This document shows, in pieces, positions 2,758 to 16,943 of a DNA stretch of 59,250 nt (within the stretch, counting starts at the first letter, position 1; each line of letters opens with the position of its first letter). Below the pieces are notes generated by a model. It saw nothing but the letters and a program-made list of their open reading frames with translations. It was not told the DNA's origin and did not search any database. Location of the stretch: NCBI GenBank assembly GCA_046052065.1, contig JBJOND010000005.1, positions 1-59,250 of the forward strand, written 5' to 3'. The position numbers were made by a program, and so were the translations under genes. Source of the stretch: Bacteroidota bacterium (lineage in GTDB: Bacteria > Bacteroidota > Bacteroidia > AKYH767-A > OLB10).

Positions 2758-3813
2758 ATGAATATTGAATCATTAAAAAAGATATGTGAAATCCCTGGAG
2801 CTCCAGGACATGAACACAGAATACGCGAACACGTAATTGAAGAGTTAAAGAAGTTAAACGTTGAAATTTCCATTGACAAAATGGGCAATGTTACCGCACT
2901 CGTAAAAGGTAAAGAACCTAAGCGTGCAATGGCAGCTGCGCATATGGATGAAATTGGTTTCATCGTTACGCATATTGATGAAAAAGGATTTGTTCGCTTT
3001 AATACTTTGGGAGGATTTGACCCAAAGACATTGACAGCACAACGTGTAATTGTACACGGAAAGAAAGATATTATTGGCGTGATGGGTTCAAAGCCTATTC
3101 ACATTATGACGCCTGAAGAAAGAACGAAGACAGCACAGCTTACAGATTACTTTATCGACTTAGGACTACCAAAAGAAGAAGTTGAAAAGCATATTAGTAT
3201 AGGCGATGCCGTTACACGCGAAAGAGAACTGATTGAAATGGGAAATTGCGTGAATTGTAAATCGATTGACAATCGTATTTCAGTATTCATTTTATTAGAA
3301 ACATTAAAGCAACTTGATAATACTATTCCTTACGACTTCTATGCTGCATTTACGGTACAAGAAGAAGTAGGAATGCGTGGAGCTTCAGTGGCTTCACATC
3401 ATATCGAACCTGATTTCGCATTTGGATTAGACACTACGATTGCATTCGACACTCCTGGTGCTCGTCCACATGAAATGGTAACTGAGTTAGGAAAAGGCGC
3501 TGCGATTAAAATCATGGATTCAAGTACTATTTGCGATACACGTATGATTGCTTTCTTGAAAAACACAGCCGATAAGCACGCTATAAAATGGCAACCTGAA
3601 ATTCTTCCAGCTGGAGGAACTGATACTGCTGCACTTCAACGCAATGGCAAAACAGGTGCAATCGCAGGAGCTATTTCTATTCCTACCAGACATATTCATC
3701 AGGTAATTGAGATGGCCGATAAAACAGATATTCAAAACTGCATTGACCTACTTACAAAAGCCATTCAGGAACTCGACAAACACGATTGGGGAATGGTTGG
3801 AAAGATTAACTAA
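2758..3813 (+). CDS. M42 family metallopeptidase (TET-type aminopeptidase)
   Basis: AHMDEIG, DNR, QEEVG, GGTD and IPTRHIH motifs. Confidence 0.92.
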   Translation: MNIESLKKICEIPGAPGHEHRIREHVIEELKKLNVEISIDKMGNVTALVKGKEPKRAMAAAHMDEIGFIVTHIDEKGFVRFNTLGGFDPKTLTAQRVIVHGKKDIIGVMGSKPIHIMTPEERTKTAQLTDYFIDLGLPKEEVEKHISIGDAVTRERELIEMGNCVNCKSIDNRISVFILLETLKQLDNTIPYDFYAAFTVQEEVGMRGASVASHHIEPDFAFGLDTTIAFDTPGARPHEMVTELGKGAAIKIMDSSTICDTRMIAFLKNTADKHAIKWQPEILPAGGTDTAALQRNGKTGAIAGAISIPTRHIHQVIEMADKTDIQNCIDLLTKAIQELDKHDWGMVGKIN

Positions 3814-3831
3814 TAGAGAGTTTAGATTACA

Positions 3832-3861
3832 AAAAAGGGTTGAAAAATTTCAACCCTTTTT
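3832..3861. terminator. Bidirectional intrinsic terminator
   Basis: Perfect 14-bp inverted repeat AAAAAGGGTTGAAA-aa-TTTCAACCCTTTTT between convergent genes. Confidence 0.85.
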
Positions 3862-3863
3862 CA

Positions 3864-5114
3864 TTATGTGTTAGATCGTATTGCTTCTACCGGATCTAAA
3901 CGCGAAGCTTGATAAGCGGGCACTAATCCTGAAATAACACCGACTATAACGGATACGGATAACCCCAGAACAATATTTCCTGTGCTCAAAGGTAGATTTA
4001 ACCCTGCATACTTACCGGCAATGGTTCCGAGATAAACAAGTAACAAACCAATTAGTCCGCCTAAAACGCAAAGGAATACCGACTCCGATAAAAACTGAAA
4101 TAGAATAAAAAAGTTCTTAGCCCCTAATGATTTTTGAATTCCGATAATGGTAGTTCTTTCCTTTACTGAAACGAACATAATATTGGCAATACCAAATCCG
4201 CCAACAAGAATACTAAAACTTCCAATGATCCAACCTGCTTTAGTCAGCATTGCAAATAAACTGTTCAGCTGATTGGAAATTAATTTTGTCTCATTCAAAG
4301 CAAAGTTATCTTCTTCTGCAGGACGTAAACGACGAATAGAACGAAGGTTCCCTTTTAACTCATCCATTAATTGCGCATTCGATATACCAGGCTTGCCTTT
4401 TACCATAATGCGTGGCTCTAATTGATCACTTCTGATATCTAAAAATCGTCTTGCATAATTAACGGGCACCATTACCGACTTATCTTTTGAATCGCCGAGC
4501 ATACTCTCTCCTTCTTTAACGAATACACCAATAACAGTAAACTTCCGTCCTTTTACGGTAATACTTTTTCCAATAGGATCAACATTCGGAATTAATGTTG
4601 AAGCCACATCAGCACCAATGATAGCTACCGGAGTTCCAGCAGCAGATTCGGTTTCGGTGAAATAACGACCGTTTGATAAATTAATGGTATAGAGATCTTC
4701 ATAATGGTGAGAAACCATCGTAACTTTTGCACTTTCAACTGCATTCTTACCCGACTTAACCGTTACATCATTAGCAGTAGCACTAAACGCAAAACTTTCT
4801 CCTAACGCACTGCGTTGCTTGAGCAACTCCATTTCTTTGTAATTTGCTGTTGGACGAACCCAATACTTCCACCACGGGAAATCCTTACCAAACTCCCACG
4901 GCCATTTCTCAATGAACACCACATTACTTCCCATCTCATTTACGCTGCTACGAATTTTATTTTCTAATCCATCTACCGCAGTAAAAACAGCAATAATGGC
5001 AAAGATTCCGATGGTAACTCCTAAAAGTGAAAGAATAGTACGTAGCTTATTCACCACCAATGCATGAATGGCCATAAGCACGCTCTCGCGTAAAAGTCGT
5101 AGGTAAATTTTCAT
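3864..5114 (-). CDS. ABC transporter permease, MacB/FtsX family
   Basis: N-terminal TM, large periplasmic MacB-type domain, and the C-terminal VGGFGIANIMFVSVKERT...GIQKSLGA motif with three TMs. Confidence 0.9.
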   Translation of the reverse strand: MKIYLRLLRESVLMAIHALVVNKLRTILSLLGVTIGIFAIIAVFTAVDGLENKIRSSVNEMGSNVVFIEKWPWEFGKDFPWWKYWVRPTANYKEMELLKQRSALGESFAFSATANDVTVKSGKNAVESAKVTMVSHHYEDLYTINLSNGRYFTETESAAGTPVAIIGADVASTLIPNVDPIGKSITVKGRKFTVIGVFVKEGESMLGDSKDKSVMVPVNYARRFLDIRSDQLEPRIMVKGKPGISNAQLMDELKGNLRSIRRLRPAEEDNFALNETKLISNQLNSLFAMLTKAGWIIGSFSILVGGFGIANIMFVSVKERTTIIGIQKSLGAKNFFILFQFLSESVFLCVLGGLIGLLLVYLGTIAGKYAGLNLPLSTGNIVLGLSVSVIVGVISGLVPAYQASRLDPVEAIRSNT

Positions 5115-5119
5115 TGGGG

Positions 5120-5127
5120 CAAAGGTA
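5120..5127 (-). promoter_or_regulatory. -7 element (TACCTTTG) of the ABC permease gene
   Basis: Matches TAnnTTTG on the minus strand, 5 nt before the ATG. Confidence 0.6.
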
Positions 5128-5328
5128 CGATAGTTTGAATAGAATTAGGAGATGACCTATAAAAATCGACTAAACAGCTAGGCATTTATTTGGGGGCAAT
5201 GTGTTTAAGTTATAAATTTGTTTGAGATGCAAAATAAGTGCTAAGCCTAACATAAATTGGCCATTTTAGCCAAAACATGTTGTGTATTTTAAAAACCAAG
5301 GAACATTTTAATAATTATTTAAGAATAT

Positions 5329-6228
5329 ATGGATTACATTTCGACATCAGCGCTTGCAAATGAGCTTGATTTAAAGTCCAGCGAACTTTTCGACAAACTG
5401 CAAACACTTGGTTGGATTGAACGAAAAAATGATAAATGGATATTGACTGACCTCGGAAAACAAAAAGGTGGTCAAATAAGAACGAACCCGAAATTTGGAG
5501 AATTCGTTGTTTGGCCTGAAAACATATCAATCGATAATGAATCGCAAATAGATAGATCAAAACTACTAAACGCAACAACCATTGGGAAGCACTTCAAAGT
5601 CTCATCGCAGCGACTGAATTTGATTTTATCAGAATTAGGATGGATAGAAAAAGGTCTATCGGGGTGGACAGTTACAAAACTTGGAAAAAATGTTGGAGGA
5701 AAACAGTTTGAACACGAAACTTCTGGTGGTTCTTATGTTTTATGGCCCAACTCAATTTTACAAAACACAAGCTTAGTCGATGTCTTTACAGATGCACCCA
5801 TTGAAAAAACAATAGCTAAGCAAGTCGAAACAATTCAAGAGCAGTCGCAGTCATCTTCGCAAACATCAAATAATTTTAGAGATAAATTTGAAGCAAAACA
5901 CAGAACAAAAGATGGACACTATGTTCGTTCAAGAGCCGAGTTAATAATTGACAACACGCTTTATGATTACGGCTTGGTTCACGCATATGAAAAAAAAGTA
6001 CCAATTCAAGAGGAATTATATACTGACTTTTATTTACCTAATGGAAAAGTTTATATCGAATTTTGGGGAATGGAAAGTGACCCTAAATATTTAGAACGCA
6101 AGAAAGTAAAATTAGAGATTTACAAAAAGTATGAATTAAAATTAATTGAGCTTGATGATAATGATATTGCAAACCTCGATGATCACTTACCAAAAAAATT
6201 ATTAAAGTTTGGTATCAAGGTATATTAG
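5329..6228 (+). CDS. Uncharacterised protein: two tandem KilA-C/antirepressor-like winged-helix repeats plus a C-terminal PD-(D/E)XK-like (DUF559/Vsr-like) nuclease domain
   Basis: An internal repeat (L..LGWIE+...W.+T.LGK..GG...G.+V+WP) occurs at aa ~3-64 and ~79-141. After a S/Q-rich linker comes GHYVRSRAE...AYE...TDFYLP...IEFWG. The ORF is certain; the domain names are pattern-based. Confidence 0.6.
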   Translation: MDYISTSALANELDLKSSELFDKLQTLGWIERKNDKWILTDLGKQKGGQIRTNPKFGEFVVWPENISIDNESQIDRSKLLNATTIGKHFKVSSQRLNLILSELGWIEKGLSGWTVTKLGKNVGGKQFEHETSGGSYVLWPNSILQNTSLVDVFTDAPIEKTIAKQVETIQEQSQSSSQTSNNFRDKFEAKHRTKDGHYVRSRAELIIDNTLYDYGLVHAYEKKVPIQEELYTDFYLPNGKVYIEFWGMESDPKYLERKKVKLEIYKKYELKLIELDDNDIANLDDHLPKKLLKFGIKVY

Positions 6229-6367
6229 TTGAAAAATAAAATAGCTGTTTATTTATTTTCATTTGAGGCAAATCAATTTTAATTTGCCCCCAACCAACCG
6301 TAAAAACTCGCCTTCTCTCACCAGGCAAACATCAAAATAAACTAATTTTAGCGCAGAAGAAATTAAC

Positions 6368-7939
6368 ATGTCGCAAGAAAAACAACAACTCGAACAACAA
6401 CTCTGGAATATAGCAAATACCCTTCGTGGTAAAATGGATGCCGATGATTTCAGAGATTATATATTAGGATTTATTTTTTATAAATACCTCAGCGAAAAAA
6501 TGGAAGATTATGCCAACACCATTTTGAAGCCTGATAAATTAACCTACGATCAAGTAGAAAAGCATAAAAACAAAAAAGAATTTCTGGCGGCCATCAAAGA
6601 AGAAGCTCTTGATAAATTAGGGTATTTCTTAAAGCCCTCTGAATTGTTTAGCGAAATGGCCCGCAGAGGAAATGCAGAAGGGAAAAGTAAATTTATATTA
6701 GACGACCTCTCCAAAGTACTTACCAGCATTGAGCAAAGTACCATGGGCTCTGAGAGCGAAGAAGATTTTGGAAACCTCTTCGAAGATTTAGATTTAACAA
6801 GTAGTAAGCTCGGCAAAACCGAAAACGATAAGAATGAACTCATCGTTAAAGTACTTGCGCATTTAAACGAAATCGATTTCGATTTAAAAAATACTGAGAA
6901 TGATGTATTAGGCGATGCCTACGAATACCTCATTGGAAAATTTGCCAGTGGTGCTGGTAAAAAAGCAGGCGAGTTTTATACACCTCAACAAGTAAGTTCG
7001 GTGTTAGCGCGACTCGTTACAGTAGGAAAAACAAAACTTAAATCGGTGTATGACCCTACTTGTGGCTCGGGCTCTTTGTTGCTGCGAGTAGCTAAGGAGG
7101 TGAAGGAGGTCTCTGCGTTTTACGGACAAGAAAGTAACCCAACAACGTACAACTTATGCCGCATGAACATGATCATGCACGATGTACACTACAAAAAGTT
7201 TGATATTAAAAATGAAGATACGTTAGAACGACCTCAACACATCGACCAACGCTTTGAGGCCATTGTTGCTAACCCTCCGTTTATTGCTGAGTGGAGCGCA
7301 AGCCCTTTGTTTATGAGTGATGATCGATATGCTGCCTACGGCCGACTTGCACCAAAAGGTACAGCCGACTTTGCCTTTGTACAACACATGGTTTTTCAGT
7401 TGGCAGATAATGGAACAATGGCGTGCGTATTACCGCATGGTGTTTTGTTTAGAGGTGGTGCCGAAGGACATATACGCGAGTATCTGATAAAAGAAAGAAA
7501 CTACCTCGATGCAGTTATTGGATTACCAGCTAATATTTTTTACGGAACCGGTATTCCTACCTGTATTTTAGTTTTAAAGAAAGACAGAAACAAAGATGCT
7601 GAGCGAAGCCGAACCGTATTATTTATTGATGCCAGCCAGCACTTTGAAAAAGTAAAAACACAAAATGTATTAAGGGCCGATGATATAAACAAAATCATTG
7701 CTACCTATAAGGCGCGCACAGCAGAAGACAAATACAGTTACGTAGCAAACCTGCAAGAGATTGCTGAAAACGATTACAACCTAAACATCCCTCGCTATGT
7801 TGATACCTTTGAAGAAGAAGAAGCGGTTGATTTAAAAGCAGTAAGTAAAGAGTTGCGAGAGATTGCTGAGCAGAGCCGAAGTACCGATGCAACCATTGCT
7901 AAATTTTGTAAAGAGTTAGGAATAGACACCCCGTTTTAA
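6368..7939 (+). CDS. hsdM: Type I restriction-modification methyltransferase subunit M
   Basis: LWNIANTLRG N-terminus, GEFYTP, YDPTCGSGSLL (SAM-binding), ANPPF (N6-adenine catalytic motif) and LPHGVLFRG. Confidence 0.97.
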   Translation: MSQEKQQLEQQLWNIANTLRGKMDADDFRDYILGFIFYKYLSEKMEDYANTILKPDKLTYDQVEKHKNKKEFLAAIKEEALDKLGYFLKPSELFSEMARRGNAEGKSKFILDDLSKVLTSIEQSTMGSESEEDFGNLFEDLDLTSSKLGKTENDKNELIVKVLAHLNEIDFDLKNTENDVLGDAYEYLIGKFASGAGKKAGEFYTPQQVSSVLARLVTVGKTKLKSVYDPTCGSGSLLLRVAKEVKEVSAFYGQESNPTTYNLCRMNMIMHDVHYKKFDIKNEDTLERPQHIDQRFEAIVANPPFIAEWSASPLFMSDDRYAAYGRLAPKGTADFAFVQHMVFQLADNGTMACVLPHGVLFRGGAEGHIREYLIKERNYLDAVIGLPANIFYGTGIPTCILVLKKDRNKDAERSRTVLFIDASQHFEKVKTQNVLRADDINKIIATYKARTAEDKYSYVANLQEIAENDYNLNIPRYVDTFEEEEAVDLKAVSKELREIAEQSRSTDATIAKFCKELGIDTPF

Positions 7940-7964
7940 TGAAAGCATCAAGTAAATTATTTTT

Positions 7965-8076
7965 GGGGCACGCCCCTTTGCCTGCGCAAATCCCAGCCCT
8001 CACGGGTCAGGCTGTCACTACTCGCTTTGCTATTTGCAATAGCAAGAGCTCAAACAAACCGTTCCATCCTTCGTGC
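7965..8076. repeat. GC-rich structured intergenic element (REP/MITE-like) between hsdM and hsdS
   Basis: Hairpins GGGGC-ac-GCCCC, TTTGC-ctgc-GCAAA and TTGCTATT-tgc-AATAGCAA (8027-8045). The ends GCACG (7968-7972) and CGTGC (8072-8076) are complementary. It is the only copy in the window; its resemblance to dispersed Bacteroidota repeats is from recall. Confidence 0.5.
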
Positions 8077-8081
8077 AAACT

Positions 8082-9221
8082 ATGAAACCAGCCATGGCAG
8101 CTAACAAAACAAAAAAAGCCCTCGTACCGAAATTGAGGTTTAAGGGATTTGGCGATGAATGGAAACCCACATTGCTTGGCAGTACATGTAGAGTTACAAC
8201 AGGAAATAAAGATACACAAAATAGAGTTGATGATGGTGCATTTCCTTTTTTTGTACGCTCTAATACAGTTGAAAGAATAAATAGCTATTCTTTTGATGGG
8301 GAGGCAATACTAACATCAGGTGATGGTGTTGGGGTTGGCAAAAACTTTCATTATATAAATGGCAAATTTGATTTTCATCAAAGAGTATACGCTTTATTAG
8401 ATTTCAAGAAAAATTATTATGGAAAATTTATTTATCAATTATTCGTAGAAAAATTCTATAAAAGAGTAATGCGATTAAGCGCAAAAAACTCTGTTGATTC
8501 GGTGCGTCTGAATATGATAACAGAAATGAATGTTTGCTTCCCCACCCTACCCGAGCAACAAAAAATAGCGGTCTTTTTATCTGCCCTAGATGAAAAAATA
8601 CAGCAGCTCACCCGCAAAAAAGAATTGTTAGAGCAATACAAAAAAGGAGTGATGCAGCAGTTACTAACTGGCAAGTTGAGATTTAAAGACAGTAACGGCA
8701 AGGCGTATCCGAAGTGGGAAGAGAGAAGACTTGGAGATGTTTTAGATTATATTCAACCTACAAAGTATTTAGTAGAAAGTACAGAATATGACAATTCTTA
8801 TTCGACACCAGTACTTACAGCAGGTAAAACTTTTATTTTAGGATACACAAATGAAACAAAGAATATTTACAATCAAATTCTTCCTGTAATATTATTTGAT
8901 GACTTTACTACTGCAACTCAATTTGTTGATTTCCCATTTAAAGCAAAATCGTCTGCAATGAAGATTTTAGTTCCTAAGCAAAATGAAAACATATTATTTT
9001 TATATGAAGTAATGCAACTTATTAAATTCGAAGTTGGAGGTCATGGTCGTCACTGGATTTCTCAGTTTGCATTATTGAATATTCCATACCCTTGCATTGA
9101 AGAACAACAAAAAATATCTGAATATCTAAAAGCAATCAACTCCAAAATAGAATTCGTTTCTAAACAAATAACCCAAACTCAAACTTTCAAAAAAGGTTTG
9201 TTACAGCAAATGTTTGTATGA
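8082..9221 (+). CDS. hsdS: Type I R-M specificity subunit S (start ATG 8082, or GTG 8073 / ATG 8094)
   Basis: VPKLRF N-terminus and two TRDs. Two conserved helical regions: P(T/C)xxEQQKI...L...I and QTFKKG(L/V)(M/L)QQ. ATGA overlap with hsdR. Confidence 0.95.
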   Translation: MKPAMAANKTKKALVPKLRFKGFGDEWKPTLLGSTCRVTTGNKDTQNRVDDGAFPFFVRSNTVERINSYSFDGEAILTSGDGVGVGKNFHYINGKFDFHQRVYALLDFKKNYYGKFIYQLFVEKFYKRVMRLSAKNSVDSVRLNMITEMNVCFPTLPEQQKIAVFLSALDEKIQQLTRKKELLEQYKKGVMQQLLTGKLRFKDSNGKAYPKWEERRLGDVLDYIQPTKYLVESTEYDNSYSTPVLTAGKTFILGYTNETKNIYNQILPVILFDDFTTATQFVDFPFKAKSSAMKILVPKQNENILFLYEVMQLIKFEVGGHGRHWISQFALLNIPYPCIEEQQKISEYLKAINSKIEFVSKQITQTQTFKKGLLQQMFV

Positions 9222-12097
9222 GTTTACAAAGTGAAGCCCTTTTAGAAAATAATTTAATCAAGCAATTAACTAGCTTAGGTTATGCGTCCGTAAATATACA
9301 GGATAGTGATGTCCTAGTGGCTAATTTAAAATTACAGTTAGAGCACTTCAATCAAACAACCTTCTCTGCAAAAGAATTTGATGCTATTTTAAATCACTTA
9401 GCCAAAGGCAACGAGTTTATAAAAGCAAAAACATTAAGAGACCGCTTTGCTATTGTAAAAGAAAATGGAGAAACCGTTTATGTGCGCTTTTTTAATAATG
9501 AAGATTGGAGTAAAAATATTTACCAGGTTACTAATCAGGTTCAACAGCAAGGTTCATTTTTAAATCGCTACGATGTTACGTTACTCGTTAATGGCTTGCC
9601 GTTAGTACAGATAGAACTAAAACGAGCAGGCATCGAAATTAAAGAAGCCTTTAATCAAATTAACCGTTACCAGCATCATTCATTTTGGAGCAACTACGGC
9701 TTATTTCAATATGTGCAGTTATTTGTAATCAGCAACGGAGTAAACACAAAATACCTTGCAAATAACAAACTACAATCGGTTAAGCAAACCTTCTTCTGGG
9801 CCGATGAAAAAAATAAAAACATCACCGACCTTACGCAATTTGCAACTGCGTTTTTAAATACCAGTCACTTAGGTAAGTTCATATCACATTACGTGGTAAT
9901 CAATGAAACTTTTAAGAACATGATGGTATTGCGTCCGTATCAATACTACGCAACCGAAGCCATAATTCGTCAGGTAGCTACAAGCAATAACAATGGTTAT
10001 ATCTGGCATACCACCGGCTCAGGTAAAACATTAACCTCGTTTAAGGCAAGTCAAATTATTATGGATTTGCCACAAGTACATAAAGTGGTTTTTGTAGTCG
10101 ATCGTAAAGATTTAGATTATCAAACCATGCAGGAGTTTAACAGCTTCAAAAAAGGCAGCGTAGACGTTACCAACAATACTACTTCCTTAGTTAAACAGCT
10201 CACAGACGATACTAAGCTCGTGCTTACTACCATTCAAAAGTTAAACAATGCGATATCAAAACAGCATTATGAAACTAAAATGGGAAATCTGAAAGACAAA
10301 AAAATTGTTTTCATTTTTGATGAATGTCATCGTTCGCAGTTTGGTGATACCCACGATAGAATTGTTACCTATTTTAAAAATGCACAACTATTTGGCTTTA
10401 CAGGCACACCCATATTTGCTGAAAACGCCAGTAAAAACGAATTAGGAAAACGCACCACCAAAGATTTGTTTGGAACTTGTCTGCATAAATATGTAATCAC
10501 AGATGCTATCCGCGACCAAAACGTTTTAAAATTTGGTATTGAGTACATTGGTAAATACAAAAACAAAAGCAAAACATTTATTGATATCGAAGTAGAAGAT
10601 ATTGATAAAGCAGAAGTGCTGGATTCACCAAAGCGTTTAGAAAAAATTGCTGATTATATTATCAAGTACCATAACCAAAAAACTTTTAATCGTGAGTACT
10701 CTTCTTTGTTTGCTGTAAGCAGCATTGAAAATTTAATTAAGTATTACGAAATTTTTAAAAGAAAGAAAGAATCAGGTGAACACGATTTGCGCATTGCTAC
10801 CATTTACACCTACGGAGTAAACGAAGATGATGCAGATGCACAAGATATATTACCTGGTGAGGATTCGTTTTTTGCAATGGCCGCCGATCCACAATTAGGT
10901 TATGAAACCAAACATACAAGAGATAAATTAGAAAATTTTATTTCCGATTATAACGCGCAATACGGAACTAATTTTTCTACAAAAGATAATTTGCTGTTTG
11001 AAGGATATTTCAAAGATATTAGCAAGCGACTAAAAGAACGCGAGAAAGAAAATTTCGATGACGATAAAGATCGTCTAGATGTTTTGTTAGTCGTAAACAT
11101 GTTTCTTACAGGCTTTGATGCGAAAAAAGTAAACACCCTTTACGTAGATAAGAACTTAAAGCATCACGGATTAATACAAGCTTATTCCAGAACCAACAGA
11201 ATATTTGGAGAAAAGAAATCACAAGGCAACATACTTTGTTTTAGAAATTTAAAAGCTTCTACCGATGAGGCCATCACCCTGTTTTCAAACAAAGAAGCTA
11301 TTGAAGATATTGTTCTTCCTCCTTACGAAGCCATAGAAAACAAATTCAAAGAAGCATTAGATAGATTACTGTCGATAGTTCCTACGTATCAATCGGTAGA
11401 TGATTTAGAGAGTGAAGATGACGAGTTGCAATTTATTCAAGCATTTAGAGCATTACTACGCGCTAAAAACGTATTGGAATCCTACACCGATTTTACGTGG
11501 AACGACTTAGGAATTGACGAACAAACTTTTGAAAACTACAAAAGCAAATACCTCGACCTTTACGATAAAGTAAAAAAAGATACAGCCAAACAAAAAGCAT
11601 CCATCTTAGATGATATCGATTTTGAAGTAGAGCTTATTCATCGTGATCAAATTAATGTAGCTTACATTTTAAAGTTATTAGCCAAATTAAAAGGAGCTAA
11701 AACATCAGAAACGCAACAGCAACGTAAAGCCATTATGGAATTACTCGGTGGCGATGTGATGTTAAGAAGCAAGCGCGAGTTAATTGAAAAGTTCATCTTA
11801 GAAAACTTACCAATCATTAGTGATGCAGATAACATCCCTGATGAATTTGAGAAATACTGGCACGACCAAAAAGTATTAGCATTAGGTAAACTATGTGATG
11901 TTGAGAACTTGGATCAAGAGCAATTCAAAGCCTTAATTGACGCTTACATTTTCAGTGGACAAGATCCTCTTCGCGATGAAGTATTCAAATGCATCGGTAA
12001 CCGTCCGAGTATTTTAAAAGCAAAAGAAATTGGCGAGCGCATCATTCATAAAATGAAAGAATACGTTGAGGTGTTTGTAAAAGGGATGGTGGCTTAA
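9218..12097 (+). CDS. hsdR: Type I R-M restriction subunit R (EcoR124-like family)
   Basis: YDVTLLVNGLPLVQIELK nuclease motif, HTTGSGKT Walker A, DECHR, FTGTP, MFLTGFD and QAYSRTNR helicase motifs. Confidence 0.97.
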   Translation: MSLQSEALLENNLIKQLTSLGYASVNIQDSDVLVANLKLQLEHFNQTTFSAKEFDAILNHLAKGNEFIKAKTLRDRFAIVKENGETVYVRFFNNEDWSKNIYQVTNQVQQQGSFLNRYDVTLLVNGLPLVQIELKRAGIEIKEAFNQINRYQHHSFWSNYGLFQYVQLFVISNGVNTKYLANNKLQSVKQTFFWADEKNKNITDLTQFATAFLNTSHLGKFISHYVVINETFKNMMVLRPYQYYATEAIIRQVATSNNNGYIWHTTGSGKTLTSFKASQIIMDLPQVHKVVFVVDRKDLDYQTMQEFNSFKKGSVDVTNNTTSLVKQLTDDTKLVLTTIQKLNNAISKQHYETKMGNLKDKKIVFIFDECHRSQFGDTHDRIVTYFKNAQLFGFTGTPIFAENASKNELGKRTTKDLFGTCLHKYVITDAIRDQNVLKFGIEYIGKYKNKSKTFIDIEVEDIDKAEVLDSPKRLEKIADYIIKYHNQKTFNREYSSLFAVSSIENLIKYYEIFKRKKESGEHDLRIATIYTYGVNEDDADAQDILPGEDSFFAMAADPQLGYETKHTRDKLENFISDYNAQYGTNFSTKDNLLFEGYFKDISKRLKEREKENFDDDKDRLDVLLVVNMFLTGFDAKKVNTLYVDKNLKHHGLIQAYSRTNRIFGEKKSQGNILCFRNLKASTDEAITLFSNKEAIEDIVLPPYEAIENKFKEALDRLLSIVPTYQSVDDLESEDDELQFIQAFRALLRAKNVLESYTDFTWNDLGIDEQTFENYKSKYLDLYDKVKKDTAKQKASILDDIDFEVELIHRDQINVAYILKLLAKLKGAKTSETQQQRKAIMELLGGDVMLRSKRELIEKFILENLPIISDADNIPDEFEKYWHDQKVLALGKLCDVENLDQEQFKALIDAYIFSGQDPLRDEVFKCIGNRPSILKAKEIGERIIHKMKEYVEVFVKGMVA

Positions 12098-12213
12098 CAT
12101 GGACACCCATTAATCTAGGAAAGGCCTGCAATAAAATCAGAATTTATAAAAATGTCAATGGAAAAATTTATGGTTATGCTATTGGCGTGGATGTAATGAA
12201 GGGAGAGTTTTGA
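12085..12213 (+). pseudogene. 3' remnant of a BNR/Asp-box (YCF48-like beta-propeller) gene overlapping the hsdR stop
   Basis: Frame 12085-12213 reads DGGLTWTPINLGKACNKIRIYKNVNGKIYGYAIGVDVMKGEF*. DGGxTW is an Asp-box. There is no usable start, and an in-frame TGA sits at 12067-12069. Confidence 0.6.
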
Positions 12214-12220
12214 TTTTCAC

Positions 12221-12228
12221 TAATTTTG
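12221..12228 (+). promoter_or_regulatory. Candidate -7 element (TAATTTTG) for the ABC operon
   Basis: Matches TAnnTTTG about 80 nt upstream of the ATG at 12308. Confidence 0.4.
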
Positions 12229-12307
12229 TTTCGCTCAGTTAGATGTTATAATAGTTGCAACTACATTTTACAAAACCAAAAATATCATTTATATACCTAC
12301 TCAAATT

Positions 12308-13180
12308 ATGGATTTAGTAATCAAAAATCTCAACAAGCAATATAGCAATGGTGTACATGCCATGAACGATGTAACTCTTACCATCAACAAAGGTATGTTT
12401 GGTTTGTTAGGACCGAATGGCGCTGGCAAATCATCATTGATGCGCACCCTAGCAACACTACAAAATGCTGATAGTGGTTCAGTAATGCTTGGTGATATTG
12501 ATGTTTTAAACGACCAAGAATCAGTAAGGAAAATCTTGGGCTATTTGCCACAAGAGTTTGGTGTATATCCTAGAACATCGGCTGTTGACTTACTCGAACA
12601 TTTAGCTATTCTAAAAGGATTTAGCAATGGCAGTGAGCGAAAAGATATGGTTGATCAATTGCTCAACAAAGTAAATTTATATGAACATCGCAAAAAAGCA
12701 GTGAGTAGTTACAGTGGTGGAATCCGCCAACGATTTGGTATTGCACAGTGTTTAATTGGCAACCCTAAATTGGTAATTGTGGATGAACCAACTGCTGGAT
12801 TAGATCCAGGCGAACGTAATCGTTTCTACAACATATTAAGTGAAATTGGTGAAAACATCATTGTAATTTTATCTACGCATATTGTACAAGATGTAAGAGA
12901 ACTTTGCACACAAATGGCAATCATGAACAAGGGTAAAGTCTTGTTTTGTGGCAATACTGATGACGCCTTACTTCAAATAAAAGGAAAAGTTTGGGAACGA
13001 AAAGTGGATAAAGGTCAATTACAAGATTTTCAAACTAATTATAAAATTATTTCCAGCAAATTGGTTGGAGGAAAACCTTTAATTCATGCATTTTCTGAAA
13101 ATGAATTAGGCAACGGATTTACAAAAGCGGAAGAAAATTTAGAAGATGTATTTTTCGCAAAACTGAATGAATTAGTTTAA
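12308..13180 (+). CDS. ABC transporter ATP-binding protein
   Basis: GPNGAGKS Walker A, YSGGIRQR signature, IVDEPTAGLD Walker B and STH switch. Confidence 0.95.
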   Translation: MDLVIKNLNKQYSNGVHAMNDVTLTINKGMFGLLGPNGAGKSSLMRTLATLQNADSGSVMLGDIDVLNDQESVRKILGYLPQEFGVYPRTSAVDLLEHLAILKGFSNGSERKDMVDQLLNKVNLYEHRKKAVSSYSGGIRQRFGIAQCLIGNPKLVIVDEPTAGLDPGERNRFYNILSEIGENIIVILSTHIVQDVRELCTQMAIMNKGKVLFCGNTDDALLQIKGKVWERKVDKGQLQDFQTNYKIISSKLVGGKPLIHAFSENELGNGFTKAEENLEDVFFAKLNELV

Positions 13181-13198
13181 TACCAACCGAAAAACTTT

Positions 13199-16100
13199 AT
13201 GTGGAAATTTATAAAACACGAATGGAAATATTGGCTCAATTCGCCAATGACATGGATCTTTTTATTCATCATCACTATTTTGGTGATGGGTGCTGTATCA
13301 TCTGACAGCGTCACTATTGGTGGTGGTGTAGGTAGCGTTCATAAAAATGCGCCATTTGTAATTCAAACTTATTACGGAGTAATGTCGCTCATTTGTTTGT
13401 TAATGACGACTGCATTTATGAATGCTTCAGCCAACAGAGACTTTTCAAGTGGCATGTATCAATTTATTTTTTCATCGCCTATCAAAAAACGAGATTATTA
13501 TTTCGGAAAATTTATTGGTGCTGCAAGTATAGCGGTATTACCACTTTTAGGTGTTTCTATTGGTGCATTGATTGGACCGTTGATGCCATGGGCAGAACCA
13601 AACCGCTATGGCGACGTTATTTGGAGCGGACATTTACAAGGCCTAATTACATTTGGAATTCCCAATACAATTATTGCTGCTGTACTTTTGTATTCGTTAG
13701 CAATTATTTTTCGAAGCAATATTGTTTCATTTGTTGGAGCAATGCTGATATTAGTATTGTATGCTGTATCTGCAGGCTTCACTAGAGATATTGAAAAAGA
13801 ATGGTTGGCAAATATTTTAGATCCATTTGGCTTTCGTCCTGAAACAATCATTTCAAAATACATGACGGTCGATGAAAAAAATGCTCATGGCGTTCCGCTA
13901 GTTGGTGCTTTGTTGATTAACCGTTTGGTATGGCTATCGATAAGTTTTTTGATTTTAATTGTGGCTTACTTCAAATTTTCATTCAGCGCAAAAAATGAAT
14001 CAGCTAAAAAAGCAAAAACGAAGGATTCAAAAATTGAATCGTTAAATAGTACTAATCGTATTTATGCAGCAAATACTGCTAGTCAATTCTCGCTTTCAGC
14101 TTTGTGGTTTTTAATAAAGTTTGAAAAAAAAGCAATTATTAATAACTCTACGTTCATCATCATTGTTGTTATTGGCTTAATGAATTTAGTCGCATCGTTA
14201 ACAACATTTTCGGGTGGCTATGGAATAGAGCAATATCCTGTTACCTATAATGTAATTGATCTCATTAACGGTTCATTTTATTTATTCCTTATTGCCATTA
14301 TTACCTTTTATACAGGTGTGTTAGTATGGAAGGAACGCGATGCGAAAATAAATGAAATACAAGACGCTACTCCTATTCAAACATCACTGCTGTTCGTTTC
14401 GAAATTAGCAGCTATCATTTTTTCGATTGCCTTGATTTTGTCTTGCACAATATTTATTGGCATAATCGCACAAGCATGTATGGGATATCATCGTTATGAA
14501 ATTGATGTATATGTTAAATCCTTGCTAATAAAAGATTTACTCTCTTTCTCTTACCTTGTAATCATTTCTTTGTTTTTCCATTACCTAATCAACAATCGTT
14601 ATATCGCTTACTTTGCATTTGTAGCCTTTGTTATTTTGAATTCATTTGTTTGGGGTGTTTTAAAAATCAATTCTAATCTTGTAAAATTTGGAGGAACTCC
14701 CACTGTTACCTATTCCGACATGAATGGATTTGGTCCGTTTGTACCTTCAAGTATATGGTTCAATATTTATTGGACAATTGCTTCTGTGTTGATTGGCTTT
14801 GTAATTTTTTCATTCTATATACGAGGTAAAGAAACTGGCTTTAGACATCGACTTGTAAACTCAAAATATTTATTGAGCAAAAATAAAATCGCCATTGGCT
14901 TATGTGCAATTGTGTTCGTGCTGTGTTGCAGTTTCATGTATTACAATACTAAAGTGGTAAACGAATACACGTCTGGTCAAGAGCAAGAAAACGATCAAGT
15001 TGATTATGAAAAAAAATATAAAAAATATGAAACGTTAGTTCAGCCACGTTTCTATAAATACAATTACAATATCGATTTGATGCCATACGAGCGCAGCATG
15101 AGTGCTAATGTAGAAGCTTGGGCAAGAAATATTTCTAATCAACCGATAACTGAATTACATTTTACAATGCCTCAGGTACCTGATTCAGTAAAAATATTAA
15201 TCGAAAGCAGCAAATTAAAATTGAATGATAGTCGATTAGGTTATCGCATATATACGTTAGTAAAACCTTTGCAACCCAACGATTCAATCATGATTAAATT
15301 TGATGTGAGTCGTATCACAAAAGGATTTGAGAACGAAGTAACATTTACGCAACTTACGCAAAATGGAACATTCTTTAACAACAGAGATATATTACCCACT
15401 TTTGGTTATGAAAACGCGTATGAAATCAGCGATAAAAACAAGCGTATAAAATTAAAGTTGCCTCCTCGTTTGCGCATGCCTAAATTGAATGAACAAGATT
15501 TAAGCGCAAGAGCAAATACATACATTAGCAACTGTTCTGATTGGGTGGAATTAAACACAACTATCAGTACCACTAAAGACCAAATAGCAATTGCTCCTGG
15601 CAGTTTAATTAAGTCTTGGGAGGCAAATGGCAAAAAATATTTCAATTATCAGCTCGAACAAAAATCATTGGATTTCTATTCATTCATTTCGGCGAAATAT
15701 GAAGTGAAAAGAAAACGTTGGAATGGAATTGATTTGGAAGTTTATTATATCAAAGAGCATGAATACAATGTACCCAATATGCTCAATAGTTTACAAAAGT
15801 CAATTGACTACTACACGAGCAATTTTGGGAAATATTACCACAAGCAATGTAGAATTATTGAGTTCCCACGTTATGCAAGTTTTGCGCAAGCATTCCCAGG
15901 TACTATGCCTTATAGCGAAGGAATTGGTTTTATCATCGATGAAAGAAACGTTACCAAAGATGATATTGACCAAGTGTTCTATGTGGTAGCGCATGAAATG
16001 GCACATCAATATTGGGCGCATCAACTATGTGGCGCTAATATGCAAGGTAGTGAAATGATGAGTGAAGGATTTGCACAATATTCTGCTTTGATGGTTATGG

Positions 16101-16774
16101 AAAAAGAATACGGCAAGGATAAAATGAAGAAGTTTTTGAAGTATGAAATGGATGGCTATTTAAGGGGAAGAAGCAGTGAGTTTGAAGCAGAAAGACCTTT
16201 AATTAAAACAGAATCGCAACAGTATATTCATTATCAAAAAGCGAGTGTGGTTATGTACTATTTAAAGGAAATGATTGGCGATAAGAAAGTGAATGAAGCC
16301 TTAAAATCCCTGATAGATTCTTTTGCATACAAGCAACCACCCTATCCAACATCAATTTCAGCAGTCAATGCTTTTAGAAAAGTAACACCTGATAGCTTAC
16401 AATATCTAATTGATGATATGTTTGAAAACATCACTATTTTTTCCAACAGAACAATCGACACAAAGTATAAAAAGGTAGGTCAAGAATATGAAGTTACAAT
16501 AACAACTACATCTGAAAAGTTCAGAGCTGATTCTTTAGGAAATGAAAAAAATAGAATTTTGAATGATTATATTGATGTAGGCATCTTCGCAGAGCCAAGT
16601 AATAAAAATAACTTGGGTAAAGTTCTAGTTTATCAACGCATGAGAATAAATAAAAAAGATAACACTTTTGTATTTAGAACGAAAGAAAAACCATATCAAG
16701 CAGGTATTGATCCATACAACTATTTAATTGATCGAATTCCAGATGATAATATTAAGAAGCTGGAGGAATTGTAA
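13199..16774 (+). CDS. ABC-2-type permease fused to an M1 (gluzincin) aminopeptidase domain
   Basis: About 12-14 hydrophobic segments in the first ~580 aa, then a soluble domain with AQAFPGTMPYSE, HEMAH...SEGFAQY and YQKA. Confidence 0.88.
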   Translation: MWKFIKHEWKYWLNSPMTWIFLFIITILVMGAVSSDSVTIGGGVGSVHKNAPFVIQTYYGVMSLICLLMTTAFMNASANRDFSSGMYQFIFSSPIKKRDYYFGKFIGAASIAVLPLLGVSIGALIGPLMPWAEPNRYGDVIWSGHLQGLITFGIPNTIIAAVLLYSLAIIFRSNIVSFVGAMLILVLYAVSAGFTRDIEKEWLANILDPFGFRPETIISKYMTVDEKNAHGVPLVGALLINRLVWLSISFLILIVAYFKFSFSAKNESAKKAKTKDSKIESLNSTNRIYAANTASQFSLSALWFLIKFEKKAIINNSTFIIIVVIGLMNLVASLTTFSGGYGIEQYPVTYNVIDLINGSFYLFLIAIITFYTGVLVWKERDAKINEIQDATPIQTSLLFVSKLAAIIFSIALILSCTIFIGIIAQACMGYHRYEIDVYVKSLLIKDLLSFSYLVIISLFFHYLINNRYIAYFAFVAFVILNSFVWGVLKINSNLVKFGGTPTVTYSDMNGFGPFVPSSIWFNIYWTIASVLIGFVIFSFYIRGKETGFRHRLVNSKYLLSKNKIAIGLCAIVFVLCCSFMYYNTKVVNEYTSGQEQENDQVDYEKKYKKYETLVQPRFYKYNYNIDLMPYERSMSANVEAWARNISNQPITELHFTMPQVPDSVKILIESSKLKLNDSRLGYRIYTLVKPLQPNDSIMIKFDVSRITKGFENEVTFTQLTQNGTFFNNRDILPTFGYENAYEISDKNKRIKLKLPPRLRMPKLNEQDLSARANTYISNCSDWVELNTTISTTKDQIAIAPGSLIKSWEANGKKYFNYQLEQKSLDFYSFISAKYEVKRKRWNGIDLEVYYIKEHEYNVPNMLNSLQKSIDYYTSNFGKYYHKQCRIIEFPRYASFAQAFPGTMPYSEGIGFIIDERNVTKDDIDQVFYVVAHEMAHQYWAHQLCGANMQGSEMMSEGFAQYSALMVMEKEYGKDKMKKFLKYEMDGYLRGRSSEFEAERPLIKTESQQYIHYQKASVVMYYLKEMIGDKKVNEALKSLIDSFAYKQPPYPTSISAVNAFRKVTPDSLQYLIDDMFENITIFSNRTIDTKYKKVGQEYEVTITTTSEKFRADSLGNEKNRILNDYIDVGIFAEPSNKNNLGKVLVYQRMRINKKDNTFVFRTKEKPYQAGIDPYNYLIDRIPDDNIKKLEEL

Positions 16775-16891
16775 GTAATTTATAAAGCGACATTAGAACA
16801 GGAATTAGAAGAATAAATAAAAAGCAATTTCTACTTTTAAATACAGTAATTTACAAATAGAAATAGTGTAACCTAAGATATTAAAGCTCAT

Positions 16892-16922
16892 AAAAAAATC
16901 CCCGCTCACGCAGGGATTTTTT
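16892..16922. terminator. Bidirectional intrinsic terminator
   Basis: AAAAAAATCCC-N10-GGGATTTTTT between convergent genes. Confidence 0.7.
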
Positions 16923-16943
16923 ATTTACTCAGAAAATTATTTT

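What the first reader, a model, noticed from the sequence alone, without database searches (positions are those of the whole stretch)
5329..6228. Candidate undescribed defence gene: tandem winged-helix repeats fused to a PD-(D/E)XK-like nuclease, directly upstream of hsdM
Seen: a 299-aa ORF with two similar ~62-aa units. Unit 1 is at ~5335-5520 (SALANELDLKSSELFDKLQTLGWIERKNDKWILTDLGKQKGG..GEFVVWPE). Unit 2 is at ~5563-5751 (TTIGKHFKVSSQRLNLILSELGWIEKGLSGWTVTKLGKNVGG..GSYVLWPN). A Ser/Gln linker follows, then a C-terminal domain (~5875-6225) RSRAE..YE..TDFY..IEFWG. It is co-oriented with hsdM and 139 bp upstream of it. Known: the repeat resembles phage antirepressor KilA-C (ANT) helix-turn-helix units; the C-terminus resembles DUF559/Vsr-type nucleases; type I R-M loci often host back-up effectors (e.g. 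PrrC in EcoprrI). Inference: a DNA-sensing nuclease that acts with, or as a fail-safe for, the R-M system (e.g. triggered by anti-restriction proteins or modified phage DNA). From memory, similar proteins are often auto-annotated 'glycerol kinase', which would hide them; no kinase motif is present here.
Basis: partly seen in the sequence, partly recalled or inferred. Interest (0 to 1): 0.75.

Follow-up and report, generated by a model that had tools for sequence, protein, structure and literature searches.

The report
Catalogued candidate defence nuclease beside hsdM
The gene is real and encodes two DNA-binding winged-helix repeats tethered to a Vsr-like nuclease, but it belongs to a family that PADLOC already lists as the untested antiphage candidate PDC-S69, and its position next to the restriction system looks like defence-island neighbourhood rather than an obligatory partnership.

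Summary
A 299-aa ORF (5329-6228, +) lies 139 bp upstream of a complete type I R-M operon (hsdM/S/R). It has two homologous ~65-75-aa units (33% identical, E 5e-12), a disordered Ser/Gln linker and a conserved C-terminal domain.

AlphaFold2 with Foldseek shows tandem winged-helix units and a PD-(D/E)xK nuclease. The nuclease is closest to the Vsr-like catalytic domain of the homing endonuclease I-Bth0305I (3r3p, TM 0.72). Conserved E204, D233, E244 and K258 form a plausible active site.

The 'undescribed' claim fails. The protein matches PADLOC-DB model PDC-S69 end to end (E 9e-112). PDC-S69 is one of 145 candidates predicted by 'guilt-by-embedding' (Payne et al. 2024). I found no experimental test of it.

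Homologues (>2,300) occur mainly in Bacteroidota, with scattered members in other phyla. They are almost absent from phages. They often sit beside R-M, TIR/Thoeris, McrBC or GmrSD genes, but also beside housekeeping genes. Only about 4 of 42 genome loci have type I genes nearby.

In related strains the ORF and hsdMR show different divergence (dS 1.0 against 0.17).

Best reading: a stand-alone DNA-targeting defence nuclease. A fail-safe coupling to hsdMSR is unsupported.

The parts
5189..5220 (+). Bacteroidota-type promoter-like element (TTTG-N20-TAAATTTG), 108 nt upstream of the ATG
   Evidence: It is one of only two full matches to TTTG-N18-22-TAnnTTTG in the 59-kb window on both strands. No -7 box occurs in the ORF-hsdM spacer. 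The region is 97-100% identical in sister strain L144. Promoter function is inferred, not shown.
5329..6228 (+). 299-aa ORF, a member of the PADLOC candidate family PDC-S69
   Evidence: ORF call. PDLC05067 matches at E 9e-112 over residues 3-299. There are 2,381 homologues. dN/dS is 0.079 against the sister-strain allele.
5329..5532 (+). Winged-helix unit 1 (aa 1-68)
   Evidence: Pfam ANT/KilA-C matches aa 4-40. The model has pLDDT >90 with the pattern strand-helix-helix-hairpin-helix-hairpin. W37, G43, W62 and P63 are invariant or nearly so.
5563..5796 (+). Winged-helix unit 2 (aa 79-156)
   Evidence: It is 33% identical to unit 1, E 5e-12. It has the same secondary-structure pattern. G112, W113, G119 and W139 are invariant.
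5797..5874 (+). Ser/Gln-rich disordered linker (aa 157-182)
   Evidence: pLDDT is below 50 for residues 158-180. It is only 50% identical to the sister-strain allele, against 96% for the nuclease domain, and its length varies in the alignment.
5875..6225 (+). C-terminal Vsr-like PD-(D/E)xK nuclease domain (aa 183-299). Putative active-site codons: E204 at 5938-5940, D233 at 6025-6027, E244 at 6058-6060, K258 at 6100-6102. The conserved D195-G196-H197 lies at 5911-5919.
   Evidence: Foldseek best PDB hit is 3r3p_B (TM 0.72 on the target, rmsd 3.1 A, 96 columns). A profile search of PDB sequences hits 3r3p at E 0.016, and D233 aligns with the D196A position of that mutant. The same domain matches the C-termini of PADLOC models PDC-S68 and HEAT_CxxC_PD-DEXK.
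6368..12097 (+). Type I R-M operon hsdM (6368-7939), hsdS (8073-9221), hsdR (9218-12097). It is a neighbour and not shown to be a functional partner.
   Evidence: Pfam domains. HsdM and HsdR are 98% identical in sister strains, with dS 0.17 against 1.02 for the ORF.
5143..16879 (.). Strain-variable region that contains the ORF, hsdMSR and an ABC-transporter/M1-peptidase pair
   Evidence: The close relative L064 (88-93% nucleotide identity) is syntenic with window 3395-5142 and 16880-17201 but has only 1.7 kb of unrelated genes between those anchors.

Best explanation
The ORF encodes a stand-alone, single-gene DNA-targeting nuclease of the PADLOC candidate family PDC-S69. It lives in defence islands and most likely restricts incoming (phage or plasmid) DNA. 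Two tandem MerR/excisionase-like winged-helix units bind double-stranded DNA. A flexible Ser/Gln linker of about 25 residues tethers them to a Vsr-like PD-(D/E)xK domain. That domain, probably after dimerising as I-Bth0305I does, cuts DNA using D233 and E244 as metal ligands, with help from E204 and K258. What is shown: the domain architecture, the fold, the conservation of the acidic and lysine residues, strong purifying selection, the near-absence from phages and the recurrent defence neighbourhood. What is inferred: DNA binding, cleavage, antiphage function and how self DNA is spared. My preferred guess for self-sparing is type IV-like recognition of a feature of foreign DNA, because no cognate methyltransferase travels with the gene. 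In this window it has its own conserved promoter and may also drive read-through into hsdM, but it is not a dedicated partner of the type I system.
For: There is a full-length PDC-S69 match, and this candidate class was derived from genes embedded in BREX, DISARM or type I R-M systems. The AF2 model has pLDDT 87. The nuclease domain is closest to I-Bth0305I/Vsr-like, followed by TnsA, Bax1, PvuRts1I and PA-N, all PD-(D/E)xK enzymes. 63 viral-protein structures match at E<=1e-3, with names such as homing endonuclease, Vsr, DUF559, DUF2726 and TnsA. Conservation across 55 diverse homologues: D233 50/55, E244 54/55 acidic, E204 47/55 acidic, K258 46/55 K or R. The N-terminal units match only DNA-binding winged-helix proteins, including the tandem dsDNA binder TraN. 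The same winged-helix unit is fused to other nuclease types (PLD, DUF2726) elsewhere, and the same nuclease domain ends other PADLOC candidates. That is the modular sensor-effector pattern typical of defence proteins. Among 10 contexts picked without regard to gene content, 5 have clear defence neighbours: type I R-M here; HEPN, TIR and Thoeris-like genes in L047; TIR and type II R-M in L052; type ISP-like R-M and AAA_15/RloB in L059; GmrSD and an MTase-S in L146. Two more are probable (L045, L058). Two further loci, selected because they showed Hsd hits, place it next to type I R-M and McrBC. The gene lies in a strain-variable region. dN/dS is 0.079. There is no full-length copy in 50,697 phage genomes and only 2 relatives in 2.9 million viral contigs. 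As a base rate, 4 of 8 randomly tested PDC/HEC candidates protected E. coli.
Against: No experiment on PDC-S69 was found. Many homologues sit beside ordinary housekeeping genes. No known modified-base reader domain (Mrr_N, SRA, EVE/PUA, DpnI-type) was detected, so the type IV idea rests only on the lack of a linked methyltransferase. All Foldseek matches to solved structures have weak E-values (>=0.013). The architecture equally fits a homing-endonuclease-like selfish gene.
Confidence: 0.5

Rival explanations
1. It is a fail-safe or accessory effector of the adjacent type I R-M system. In this reading it senses anti-restriction proteins or modified DNA and acts only together with HsdMSR.
For: It is co-oriented with hsdM and 139 bp upstream. 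There is no promoter-like -7 box and no terminator in the spacer, so co-transcription is possible. The arrangement is retained in sister strains. Independent lineages again place a homologue next to type I genes (L027, L024). The PDC class was found through embedding in such systems.
Against: Only about 4 of 42 genome loci have Hsd-like genes within 10 kb. Homologues at about 80% identity already lack them (L001-L003, L006). Other partners are type II or type ISP R-M, TIR, Thoeris-like or housekeeping genes. The ORF and hsdM/hsdR have different divergence (dS 1.02 against 0.17), with an identity break at about 6390. It has no ATPase or HsdR-interaction module like PrrC, and it is not embedded between hsd genes.
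Confidence: 0.1
2. It is a selfish, free-standing homing-endonuclease-like gene. It would be a sequence-specific nuclease that promotes its own spread into intergenic sites, and defence islands would merely be places that tolerate it.
For: Its architecture is the same as that of I-Bth0305I: two N-terminal HTH-type repeats and a C-terminal Vsr-like nuclease of similar size (PMC3239194). I-Bth0305I is also the best structural match. The distribution across phyla is patchy, with high identity (70-80% across Bacteroidota orders and a Spirochaetales MAG). It occurs as a single gene in many unrelated contexts.
Against: It is essentially absent from phage genomes, where free-standing homing endonuclease genes thrive. 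It is not found inside introns or inteins. The EDxHD His and second Asp are not conserved; K258 occupies the D222 position. Strong purifying selection over a long residence at one chromosomal site (dS ~1, dN/dS 0.08) is unusual for homing genes, which tend to decay after fixation. No conserved flanking repeats or target duplication were found.
Confidence: 0.12
3. It is a DNA-repair or housekeeping nicking endonuclease (Vsr-like lesion or mismatch processing), or a DNA-binding regulator with a vestigial nuclease domain.
For: The Vsr fold is a repair fold. A rare fusion of this nuclease domain to a family-4 uracil-DNA glycosylase exists (P0212/P0271). Some neighbours are UvrD or PIF1 helicases, umuD and AlkB-like genes. 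Many contexts are housekeeping.
Against: The gene is accessory, strain-variable and horizontally scattered, not a core gene. No cytosine methyltransferase partner, as Vsr has, is present. The catalytic residues are conserved, which argues against a vestigial domain. Enrichment beside immune genes and the PADLOC candidacy point elsewhere.
Confidence: 0.08

Closest known systems
PADLOC phage defence candidate PDC-S69 (model PDLC05067; candidate set of Payne, Hughes, Fineran and Jackson, bioRxiv 10.1101/2024.01.29.577857)
   Same: There is an end-to-end HMM match (E 9e-112, residues 3-299 against 5-289 of 289). It is a single-gene unit found with type I R-M systems, as in the discovery rationale.
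   Different: Nothing differs structurally, so this ORF is a member. The family has no published domain analysis, mechanism or phage assay in the library I could search. Here the gene flanks the R-M operon rather than being embedded in it.
I-Bth0305I / 'EDxHD' Vsr-like homing endonucleases (PDB 3r3p; PMC3239194)
   Same: Both have two N-terminal HTH-type DNA-binding repeats, a linker and a C-terminal Vsr-like PD-(D/E)xK domain, and are of similar size (266 against 299 aa). I-Bth0305I is the best structural hit (TM 0.72). The catalytic Asp is aligned (D233 = D196 = Vsr D51).
   Different: The EDxHD His213 and Asp222 are not conserved (a conserved Lys/Arg258 sits at the D222 position), and the family has its own DGH...E...D...E...K signature. 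The DNA-binding repeats are KilA-C/MerR-like winged helices, not NUMODs. The gene is chromosomal, lies in defence islands, is not in an intron or intein and is practically absent from phages.
Type IV restriction enzymes of the Mrr type (winged-helix reader plus PD-(D/E)xK nuclease; E. coli immigration control region hsdRMS-mrr-mcrBC) - comparison from established knowledge
   Same: It is a single polypeptide with N-terminal winged-helix DNA binding and a C-terminal PD-(D/E)xK nuclease. No linked methyltransferase travels with the family. It sits beside type I R-M here, and between hsdR and mcrBC in L024.
   Different: There is no sequence or fold match to Mrr_N, Mrr_cat or any known modified-base reader. 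The readers are in tandem and the nuclease is a Vsr-like variant. Dependence on DNA modification is untested.
PrrC/RloC anticodon nucleases linked to type I R-M
   Same: Both are an extra effector gene physically associated with hsd genes.
   Different: PrrC is embedded between hsd genes, has an ABC-type ATPase and an RNase domain, and is almost exclusively found with type I R-M (Figure 6C legend). This protein is a DNA-nuclease fold without an ATPase, lies upstream of the operon and is mostly found without hsd genes.
TraN of pIP501 (PDB 4p0y/4pm3), a tandem MerR/excisionase-like winged-helix dsDNA binder
   Same: Both have two consecutive small winged-helix units in one chain. TraN is the top Foldseek hit for the N-terminal half.
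   Different: The match is weak (E 0.1, rmsd >14 A over both units, so the relative orientation differs). TraN has no nuclease domain and belongs to conjugation machinery.

Membership tests
PADLOC PDC-S69 | Full-length match to the family HMM PDLC05067 | tested here: met
   E 9e-112, 371 bits, protein residues 3-299 against profile positions 5-289 of 289.
PADLOC PDC-S69 | Single-gene unit (S class): no conserved partner gene | tested here: met
   Neighbours of 42 genome loci and about 12 annotated contexts are heterogeneous. No family recurs in more than 6 of 137 flanking proteins.
PADLOC PDC-S69 | Antiphage activity | not testable with these tools
   No report was found. PDC-S69 was not among the candidates assayed in PMC12881386.
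PD-(D/E)xK nuclease superfamily, Vsr-like branch | Alpha/beta core fold superimposable on a solved Vsr-like nuclease | tested here: met
   Foldseek hit to 3r3p_B with TM 0.72 (target-normalised), rmsd 3.1 A, 96 of 98 columns, prob 1.00 but E 0.013. Further hits are TnsA, Bax1, PvuRts1I and PA-N.
PD-(D/E)xK nuclease superfamily, Vsr-like branch | Conserved metal-binding Asp at the start of the second core strand and an acidic residue on the third strand | tested here: met
   D233 aligns with the D196(A) position of 3r3p, which equals Vsr D51. D233 is conserved in 50/55 and E244 is E or D in 54/55.
EDxHD homing endonucleases (I-Bth0305I family) | Composite EDxHD motif, including the catalytic His (H213) and the second Asp (D222) | tested here: not met
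   In the profile alignment the H213 position falls on a variable residue, and D222 aligns with the conserved K/R258.
EDxHD homing endonucleases (I-Bth0305I family) | Encoded in group I introns or inteins, or free-standing in phage genomes | tested here: not met
   No full-length copy in 50,697 phage records and 2 relatives in 2.9 million viral contigs. The gene is a chromosomal intergenic ORF with its own promoter-like element.
Pfam ANT / KilA-C (PF03374) | Score above the Pfam gathering threshold over the domain | tested here: inconclusive
   The whole-protein score is 29.3 bits against a cut-off of 25.3, and 48 of 55 homologues hit it. But only profile positions 24-62 of 108 are covered, so the match is to the helix-turn-helix core only.
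Pfam DUF559 (PF04480) / Vsr (PF03852) | Detectable profile match | tested here: not met
   No hit at E<=10 for the window protein and none at E<=0.01 in any of 55 homologues. The resemblance is at fold level only.
Type IV (modification-dependent) restriction enzymes | A recognisable modified-base reader domain (Mrr_N, SRA, EVE/PUA, McrB-N, DpnI-type winged helix) | tested here: not met
   No such Pfam or PDB-fold match was found. Only generic MarR-, MerR- and Xis-like winged helices match.
Type IV (modification-dependent) restriction enzymes | Cleavage depends on DNA modification | not testable with these tools
   This needs nuclease assays on modified and unmodified substrates.
PrrC-like R-M-linked fail-safe effectors | Near-obligatory genetic linkage to (embedding within) type I hsd genes | tested here: not met
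   Hsd-like genes lie within 10 kb in only 4 of 42 loci. In the window the gene flanks the operon.
Glycerol kinase (FGGY), the name given to some homologues | FGGY carbohydrate kinase domains | tested here: not met
   No kinase family was hit in Pfam or NCBIfam. The name on P0049 and P0083 is a mis-annotation.

The most novel reading that the evidence does not exclude
PDC-S69 could be a new type of restriction enzyme descended from the same stock as Vsr-like homing endonucleases. Its tandem KilA-C-like winged helices, a module otherwise typical of phage antirepressors, would read a feature specific to foreign DNA, or a phage protein bound to DNA, and direct a tethered Vsr-like nuclease to it. 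In this lineage it would also be the promoter-proximal gene that drives the type I R-M operon, which would link the expression of two layers of immunity.
Probability: 0.15. Interest if true: 0.6.

Novelty: new member of a known kind. Interest (0 to 1): 0.38.

Why it matters
If PDC-S69 is confirmed as a defence nuclease, it would add a compact single-gene system that is widespread in environmental Bacteroidota, a phylum under-represented in experimental defence work. It would also show that the Vsr-like 'homing endonuclease' architecture (tandem HTH repeats tethered to a nuclease) has been used for immunity.

The analysis here gives the family what the catalogue entry lacks:
- domain boundaries
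- a structural assignment
- point mutants to test (D233, E244, K258, E204 and the DGH motif)
- evidence that the gene is autonomous rather than an R-M accessory

As a discovery it is limited, because the family is already flagged by PADLOC and any routine defence annotation would find it.

Tried and rejected
1. Flanking inverted 10-mers. TTGGGGGCAA at 5190 pairs with 6284, and TAAACAGCTA at 5171 pairs with 6242, which looked like cassette ends. The order is not nested, and the downstream arm is absent from the sister-strain spacer. I rejected this as chance; the upstream copy overlaps the -33 promoter box.

2. Sequence search of PDB with the single protein found nothing meaningful. Only the family profile reached 3r3p.

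3. I looked for PDC-S69 by name in the Payne et al. supplements. It was not found, because the stored tables are truncated. Literature searches for the name and its spelling variants found nothing relevant.

4. A known RNA element or stable structure in the perfectly conserved 5' leader: no Rfam hit, and fold z-score 0.72.

5. RNA-seq evidence for co-transcription: no RNA run holds the sequence, only freshwater metagenome DNA runs.

6. The UDG-nuclease fusion as a clue to base recognition: it is real but confined to two near-identical proteins, which is too rare to carry weight.

7. A per-locus PADLOC tally for all 137 flanking proteins: the tool returns only family totals, so the defence association is counted from Pfam-annotated contexts instead.

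8. Whether the MacB-type permease neighbourhood is conserved: none of 79 more distant permease loci carries the ORF or hsd genes.

9. One look-up (P0023) returned no record.
Full report
**Observation.** The window contains the ORF exactly as described: 5329..6228 on the + strand, 299 aa. A 139-bp spacer follows, then a complete type I R-M operon. Pfam annotates it as hsdM (6368-7939; HsdM_N and N6_Mtase), hsdS (8073-9221; Methylase_S) and hsdR (9218-12097; HSDR_N, SWI2_SNF2, T1R_D3, EcoR124_C). The two N-terminal units are truly homologous: BLASTP of one against the other gives 33% identity over 73 residues, E 5e-12. Two homologues are called 'glycerol kinase' in NCBI MAG records, yet neither Pfam nor NCBIfam finds a kinase domain.

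**Already catalogued.** The protein matches the PADLOC-DB v2.0.0 model PDLC05067, 'PDC-S69', from end to end (E 9e-112). PDC systems are the 145 'phage defence candidates' that Payne, Hughes, Fineran and Jackson derived from genes embedded in BREX, DISARM and type I R-M systems and then added to PADLOC (bioRxiv 10.1101/2024.01.29.577857). They are computational candidates; the seven systems validated in that work are a separate set. I found no paper that names or tests PDC-S69. An independent study tested eight randomly chosen PDC/HEC candidates and saw protection from four, but S69 was not among them (PMC12881386). So 'undescribed' and 'hidden' are not correct, while 'uncharacterised' is.

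**Structure.**
- An AlphaFold2 model built on 55 diverse homologues is confident within domains (mean pLDDT 87). It is disordered at 70-76 and 158-180.
- Residues 3-63 and 80-154 repeat the pattern strand, helix, helix, beta-hairpin, helix, beta-hairpin.
- Modelled alone (pLDDT 90.6), the N-terminal half matches only DNA-binding winged-helix proteins in the PDB: MarR/OhrR/AbfR, the MerR-like RacA domain, ScpB, AbiEi and the tandem dsDNA binder TraN. All matches are at non-significant E-values (>=0.1).
- Pfam places the helix-turn-helix core in ANT/KilA-C. The score of 29.3 bits exceeds the 25.3 cut-off, and 48 of 55 homologues hit the family, but only positions 24-62 of the 108-position model are covered.
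- I therefore treat 'tandem winged-helix DNA-binding units' as supported at the level of general fold. Membership of KilA-C remains inconclusive.

**The C-terminal domain.**
- The best solved-structure match of residues 183-299 is 3r3p, the catalytic domain of the homing endonuclease I-Bth0305I (TM 0.72 normalised to the target, rmsd 3.1 A, 96 of 98 columns, E 0.013). Weaker hits are TnsA, Bax1, PvuRts1I and influenza PA-N, all PD-(D/E)xK enzymes.
- A family profile also reaches 3r3p by sequence (E 0.016).
- Against predicted viral structures there are 63 hits at E<=1e-3, named homing endonuclease, Vsr-type mismatch endonuclease, DUF559, DUF2726, TnsA or restriction enzyme.
- The I-Bth0305I paper (PMC3239194) states that 3r3p is the D196A/H213A mutant and that D196 equals Vsr D51, the Mg-binding aspartate. 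In the profile alignment that alanine faces D233 of the window protein.
- Across 55 homologues, D233 is kept in 50, E244 is acidic in 54, E204 is acidic in 47, K258 is K or R in 46, and the D195-G196-H197 triplet is kept in 53, 55 and 51.
- The EDxHD histidine and second aspartate are not conserved; K258 sits where I-Bth0305I has D222. The domain is thus a Vsr-like scaffold with classical D...E...K chemistry. It is related to the EDxHD family but is not a member.
- No Pfam nuclease family, including DUF559 and Vsr, detects it in the window protein or in any homologue.
- The same domain does end two other PADLOC models, PDC-S68 and HEAT_CxxC_PD-DEXK.

**Distribution.**
- The family is large: 2,381 proteins at E<=1e-3 in the 90% clusters and 2,321 representatives at 50%.
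- It is unusually well conserved. The top 120 hits are 69-100% identical and all about 300 aa.
- Forty-two species-level genome loci are mostly Bacteroidota. Others include Leptospira, a Spirochaetales MAG, Halobacillus, Aneurinibacillus, Sedimenticola, Thiohalomonadaceae, Phycisphaerae and Gallionellaceae.
- Nine plasmids or chromids carry full-length copies.
- Phages essentially do not carry it. There is no full-length copy in 50,697 phage genomes, and only two relatives were found in 2.9 million viral contigs.
- Modules are shuffled. Many relatives have one winged-helix unit or a different N-terminus. A single winged-helix unit is appended to PLD-family and DUF2726 proteins on plasmids and to a protein of Vibrio inoviruses.

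**Genomic context.**
- Flanking genes are heterogeneous.
- I examined ten contexts chosen for contig length or by collection search, not for gene content. Five have clear immune neighbours: this window (type I R-M), L047/48 (HEPN, several TIR genes, ThsB-like and SIR2-STALD), L052 (TIR and a type II R-M), L059 (a type ISP-like MTase-REase and AAA_15/RloB) and L146 (GmrSD and an MTase-S pair).
- Two more are probable: L045 (2CompART/ARG with UvrD-like, methylase and AlkB-like genes) and L058 (HTH and a Schlafen-type helicase).
- The rest show a Gp49-HTH toxin-antitoxin pair in a housekeeping setting (L061-63), PIF1 plus a methylase (L049), and UvrD and umuD on a plasmid (L054).
- Two loci that I examined because they had Hsd hits put the homologue directly upstream of an hsdR / KilA-N / hsdM-S operon (L027) and between hsdR and mcrBC (L024).
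- Hsd-like genes lie within 10 kb in only four of 42 genome loci, and relatives at about 80% identity already lack them.

**The local locus.**
- A close relative (L064, 88-93% nucleotide identity) is syntenic with window 3395-5142 and 16880-17201. It has 1.7 kb of unrelated genes where the window has 11.7 kb. The ORF and the R-M system therefore lie in a strain-variable region.
- Contigs L144 and L145 are the same locus in sister strains. Protein identities to the window are permease 96%, HsdM and HsdR 98%, HsdS 40%, and the ORF 85-86% (85% by tblastn, 86% in the global alignment).
- The ORF is under strong purifying selection (dN/dS 0.079). Changes are concentrated in the linkers (50% identity), against 86-91% in the winged-helix units and 96% in the nuclease domain.
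- Its synonymous divergence (1.02) resembles or exceeds that of the backbone permease (0.68). That of hsdM and hsdR is 0.17, and identity jumps to 96-98% at about position 6390. The R-M module has therefore been exchanged more recently than the ORF, and the two do not evolve as one unit.
- A Bacteroidota-type promoter match (TTTG-N20-TAAATTTG) lies at 5189-5220. It is one of two in the whole window, and the ORF-hsdM spacer has neither a -7 box nor a terminator. Read-through into hsdM is therefore possible, but it is untested because no RNA data exist.

**Interpretation.** The most economical reading is a stand-alone DNA-binding nuclease that belongs to the mobile defence gene pool (confidence about 0.5 for antiphage function; about 0.8 that it is an active DNA-binding nuclease). 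Because no methyltransferase travels with it, self DNA must be spared in one of three ways: recognition of a foreign-DNA feature (type IV-like, my preferred guess, roughly 0.2), a very rare target sequence, or activation only during infection. None of these could be tested.

Rivals:
- A homing-endonuclease-like selfish gene is a serious rival (0.12), because the architecture is that of I-Bth0305I. Against it are the absence from phages, the missing EDxHD residues and long-term purifying selection at one chromosomal site.
- A repair or regulatory role (0.08) fits the Vsr fold and a rare UDG fusion, but not the accessory, island-borne distribution.

**Verdict.** This is a real and correctly described gene, a new member of an already catalogued but uncharacterised candidate family. 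The added value here is the structural assignment, the putative active site and the evidence for autonomy from the R-M system. It is of moderate interest.

Noticed in passing
L144:5254-6362 and L145:4267-5375 (sister-strain copies of window ~9100-9330): In sister strains a 327-aa RhuM/Fic gene and a 41-aa ORF are inserted between hsdS and hsdR, with the first 38 codons of hsdR duplicated. The window lacks this insert. RhuM-domain genes are themselves PADLOC candidates; PDC-S05 was reported as protective in PMC12881386.
   Followed up: partly
window 8073-9221 (hsdS) compared with L144:4019-5257: HsdS is only 40% identical between strains whose HsdM and HsdR are 98% identical. This is a swap of specificity subunits within an otherwise near-identical R-M system.
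   Followed up: partly
window 5204-5328: The stretch between the promoter-like element and the ATG is 100% identical to the sister strain over about 125 nt, although synonymous sites in the ORF are near saturation (dS ~1). There is no Rfam match and no unusual RNA stability (z 0.72). The cause is unexplained. It may be a shared regulatory region for the divergent permease gene and the ORF, or a recombination tract.
   Followed up: partly
window 5143-16879: The whole segment (ORF, hsdMSR, an ABC ATPase at 12308-13180 and an 1191-aa membrane protein with an M1 peptidase domain at 13199-16774) is replaced by 1.7 kb of unrelated genes in the close relative L064. This marks an integration hot spot next to the MacB-type permease gene.
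   Followed up: partly
P0212 / P0271 (metagenomic proteins, 421 and 446 aa): These proteins are a rare fusion of a family-4 uracil-DNA glycosylase domain, an unassigned middle domain (shared with P0232) and the PDC-S69-type nuclease domain. The fusion is seen in two independent assemblies only.
   Followed up: partly
L055:5482-6198, L056:5449-6210, L057:2491-3201: A single copy of the winged-helix unit forms the C-terminus of a phospholipase-D-family protein (Aeromonas plasmid), a DUF2726 protein (Vibrio plasmid) and a 236-aa 'DNA repair protein' of f237-like Vibrio parahaemolyticus inoviruses. It therefore appears to be a portable module attached to different nucleases.
   Followed up: partly
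L027:13661-14476: A KilA-N domain gene is embedded between the hsdR-like gene and the hsdM-S fusion gene of a type I-like system. That system lies directly downstream of a PDC-S69 homologue.
   Followed up: no
window 5190-5199, 6284-6293, 43497-43506: The 10-mer TTGGGGGCAA occurs three times in the window (0.07 expected by chance), and two of the copies flank the ORF in inverted orientation. The downstream copy is not conserved in the sister strain, so a role as a cassette boundary is unlikely. The third copy was not examined.
   Followed up: partly
L054:4988-7927 (Methylotuvimicrobium alcaliphilum plasmid): A 979-aa UvrD-helicase-domain gene ends 55 bp before the plasmid-borne homologue. UvrD-like or PIF1 helicase genes also lie within a few genes in L045 and L049. 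This could be a recurrent helicase neighbour, but it was not analysed statistically.
   Followed up: no
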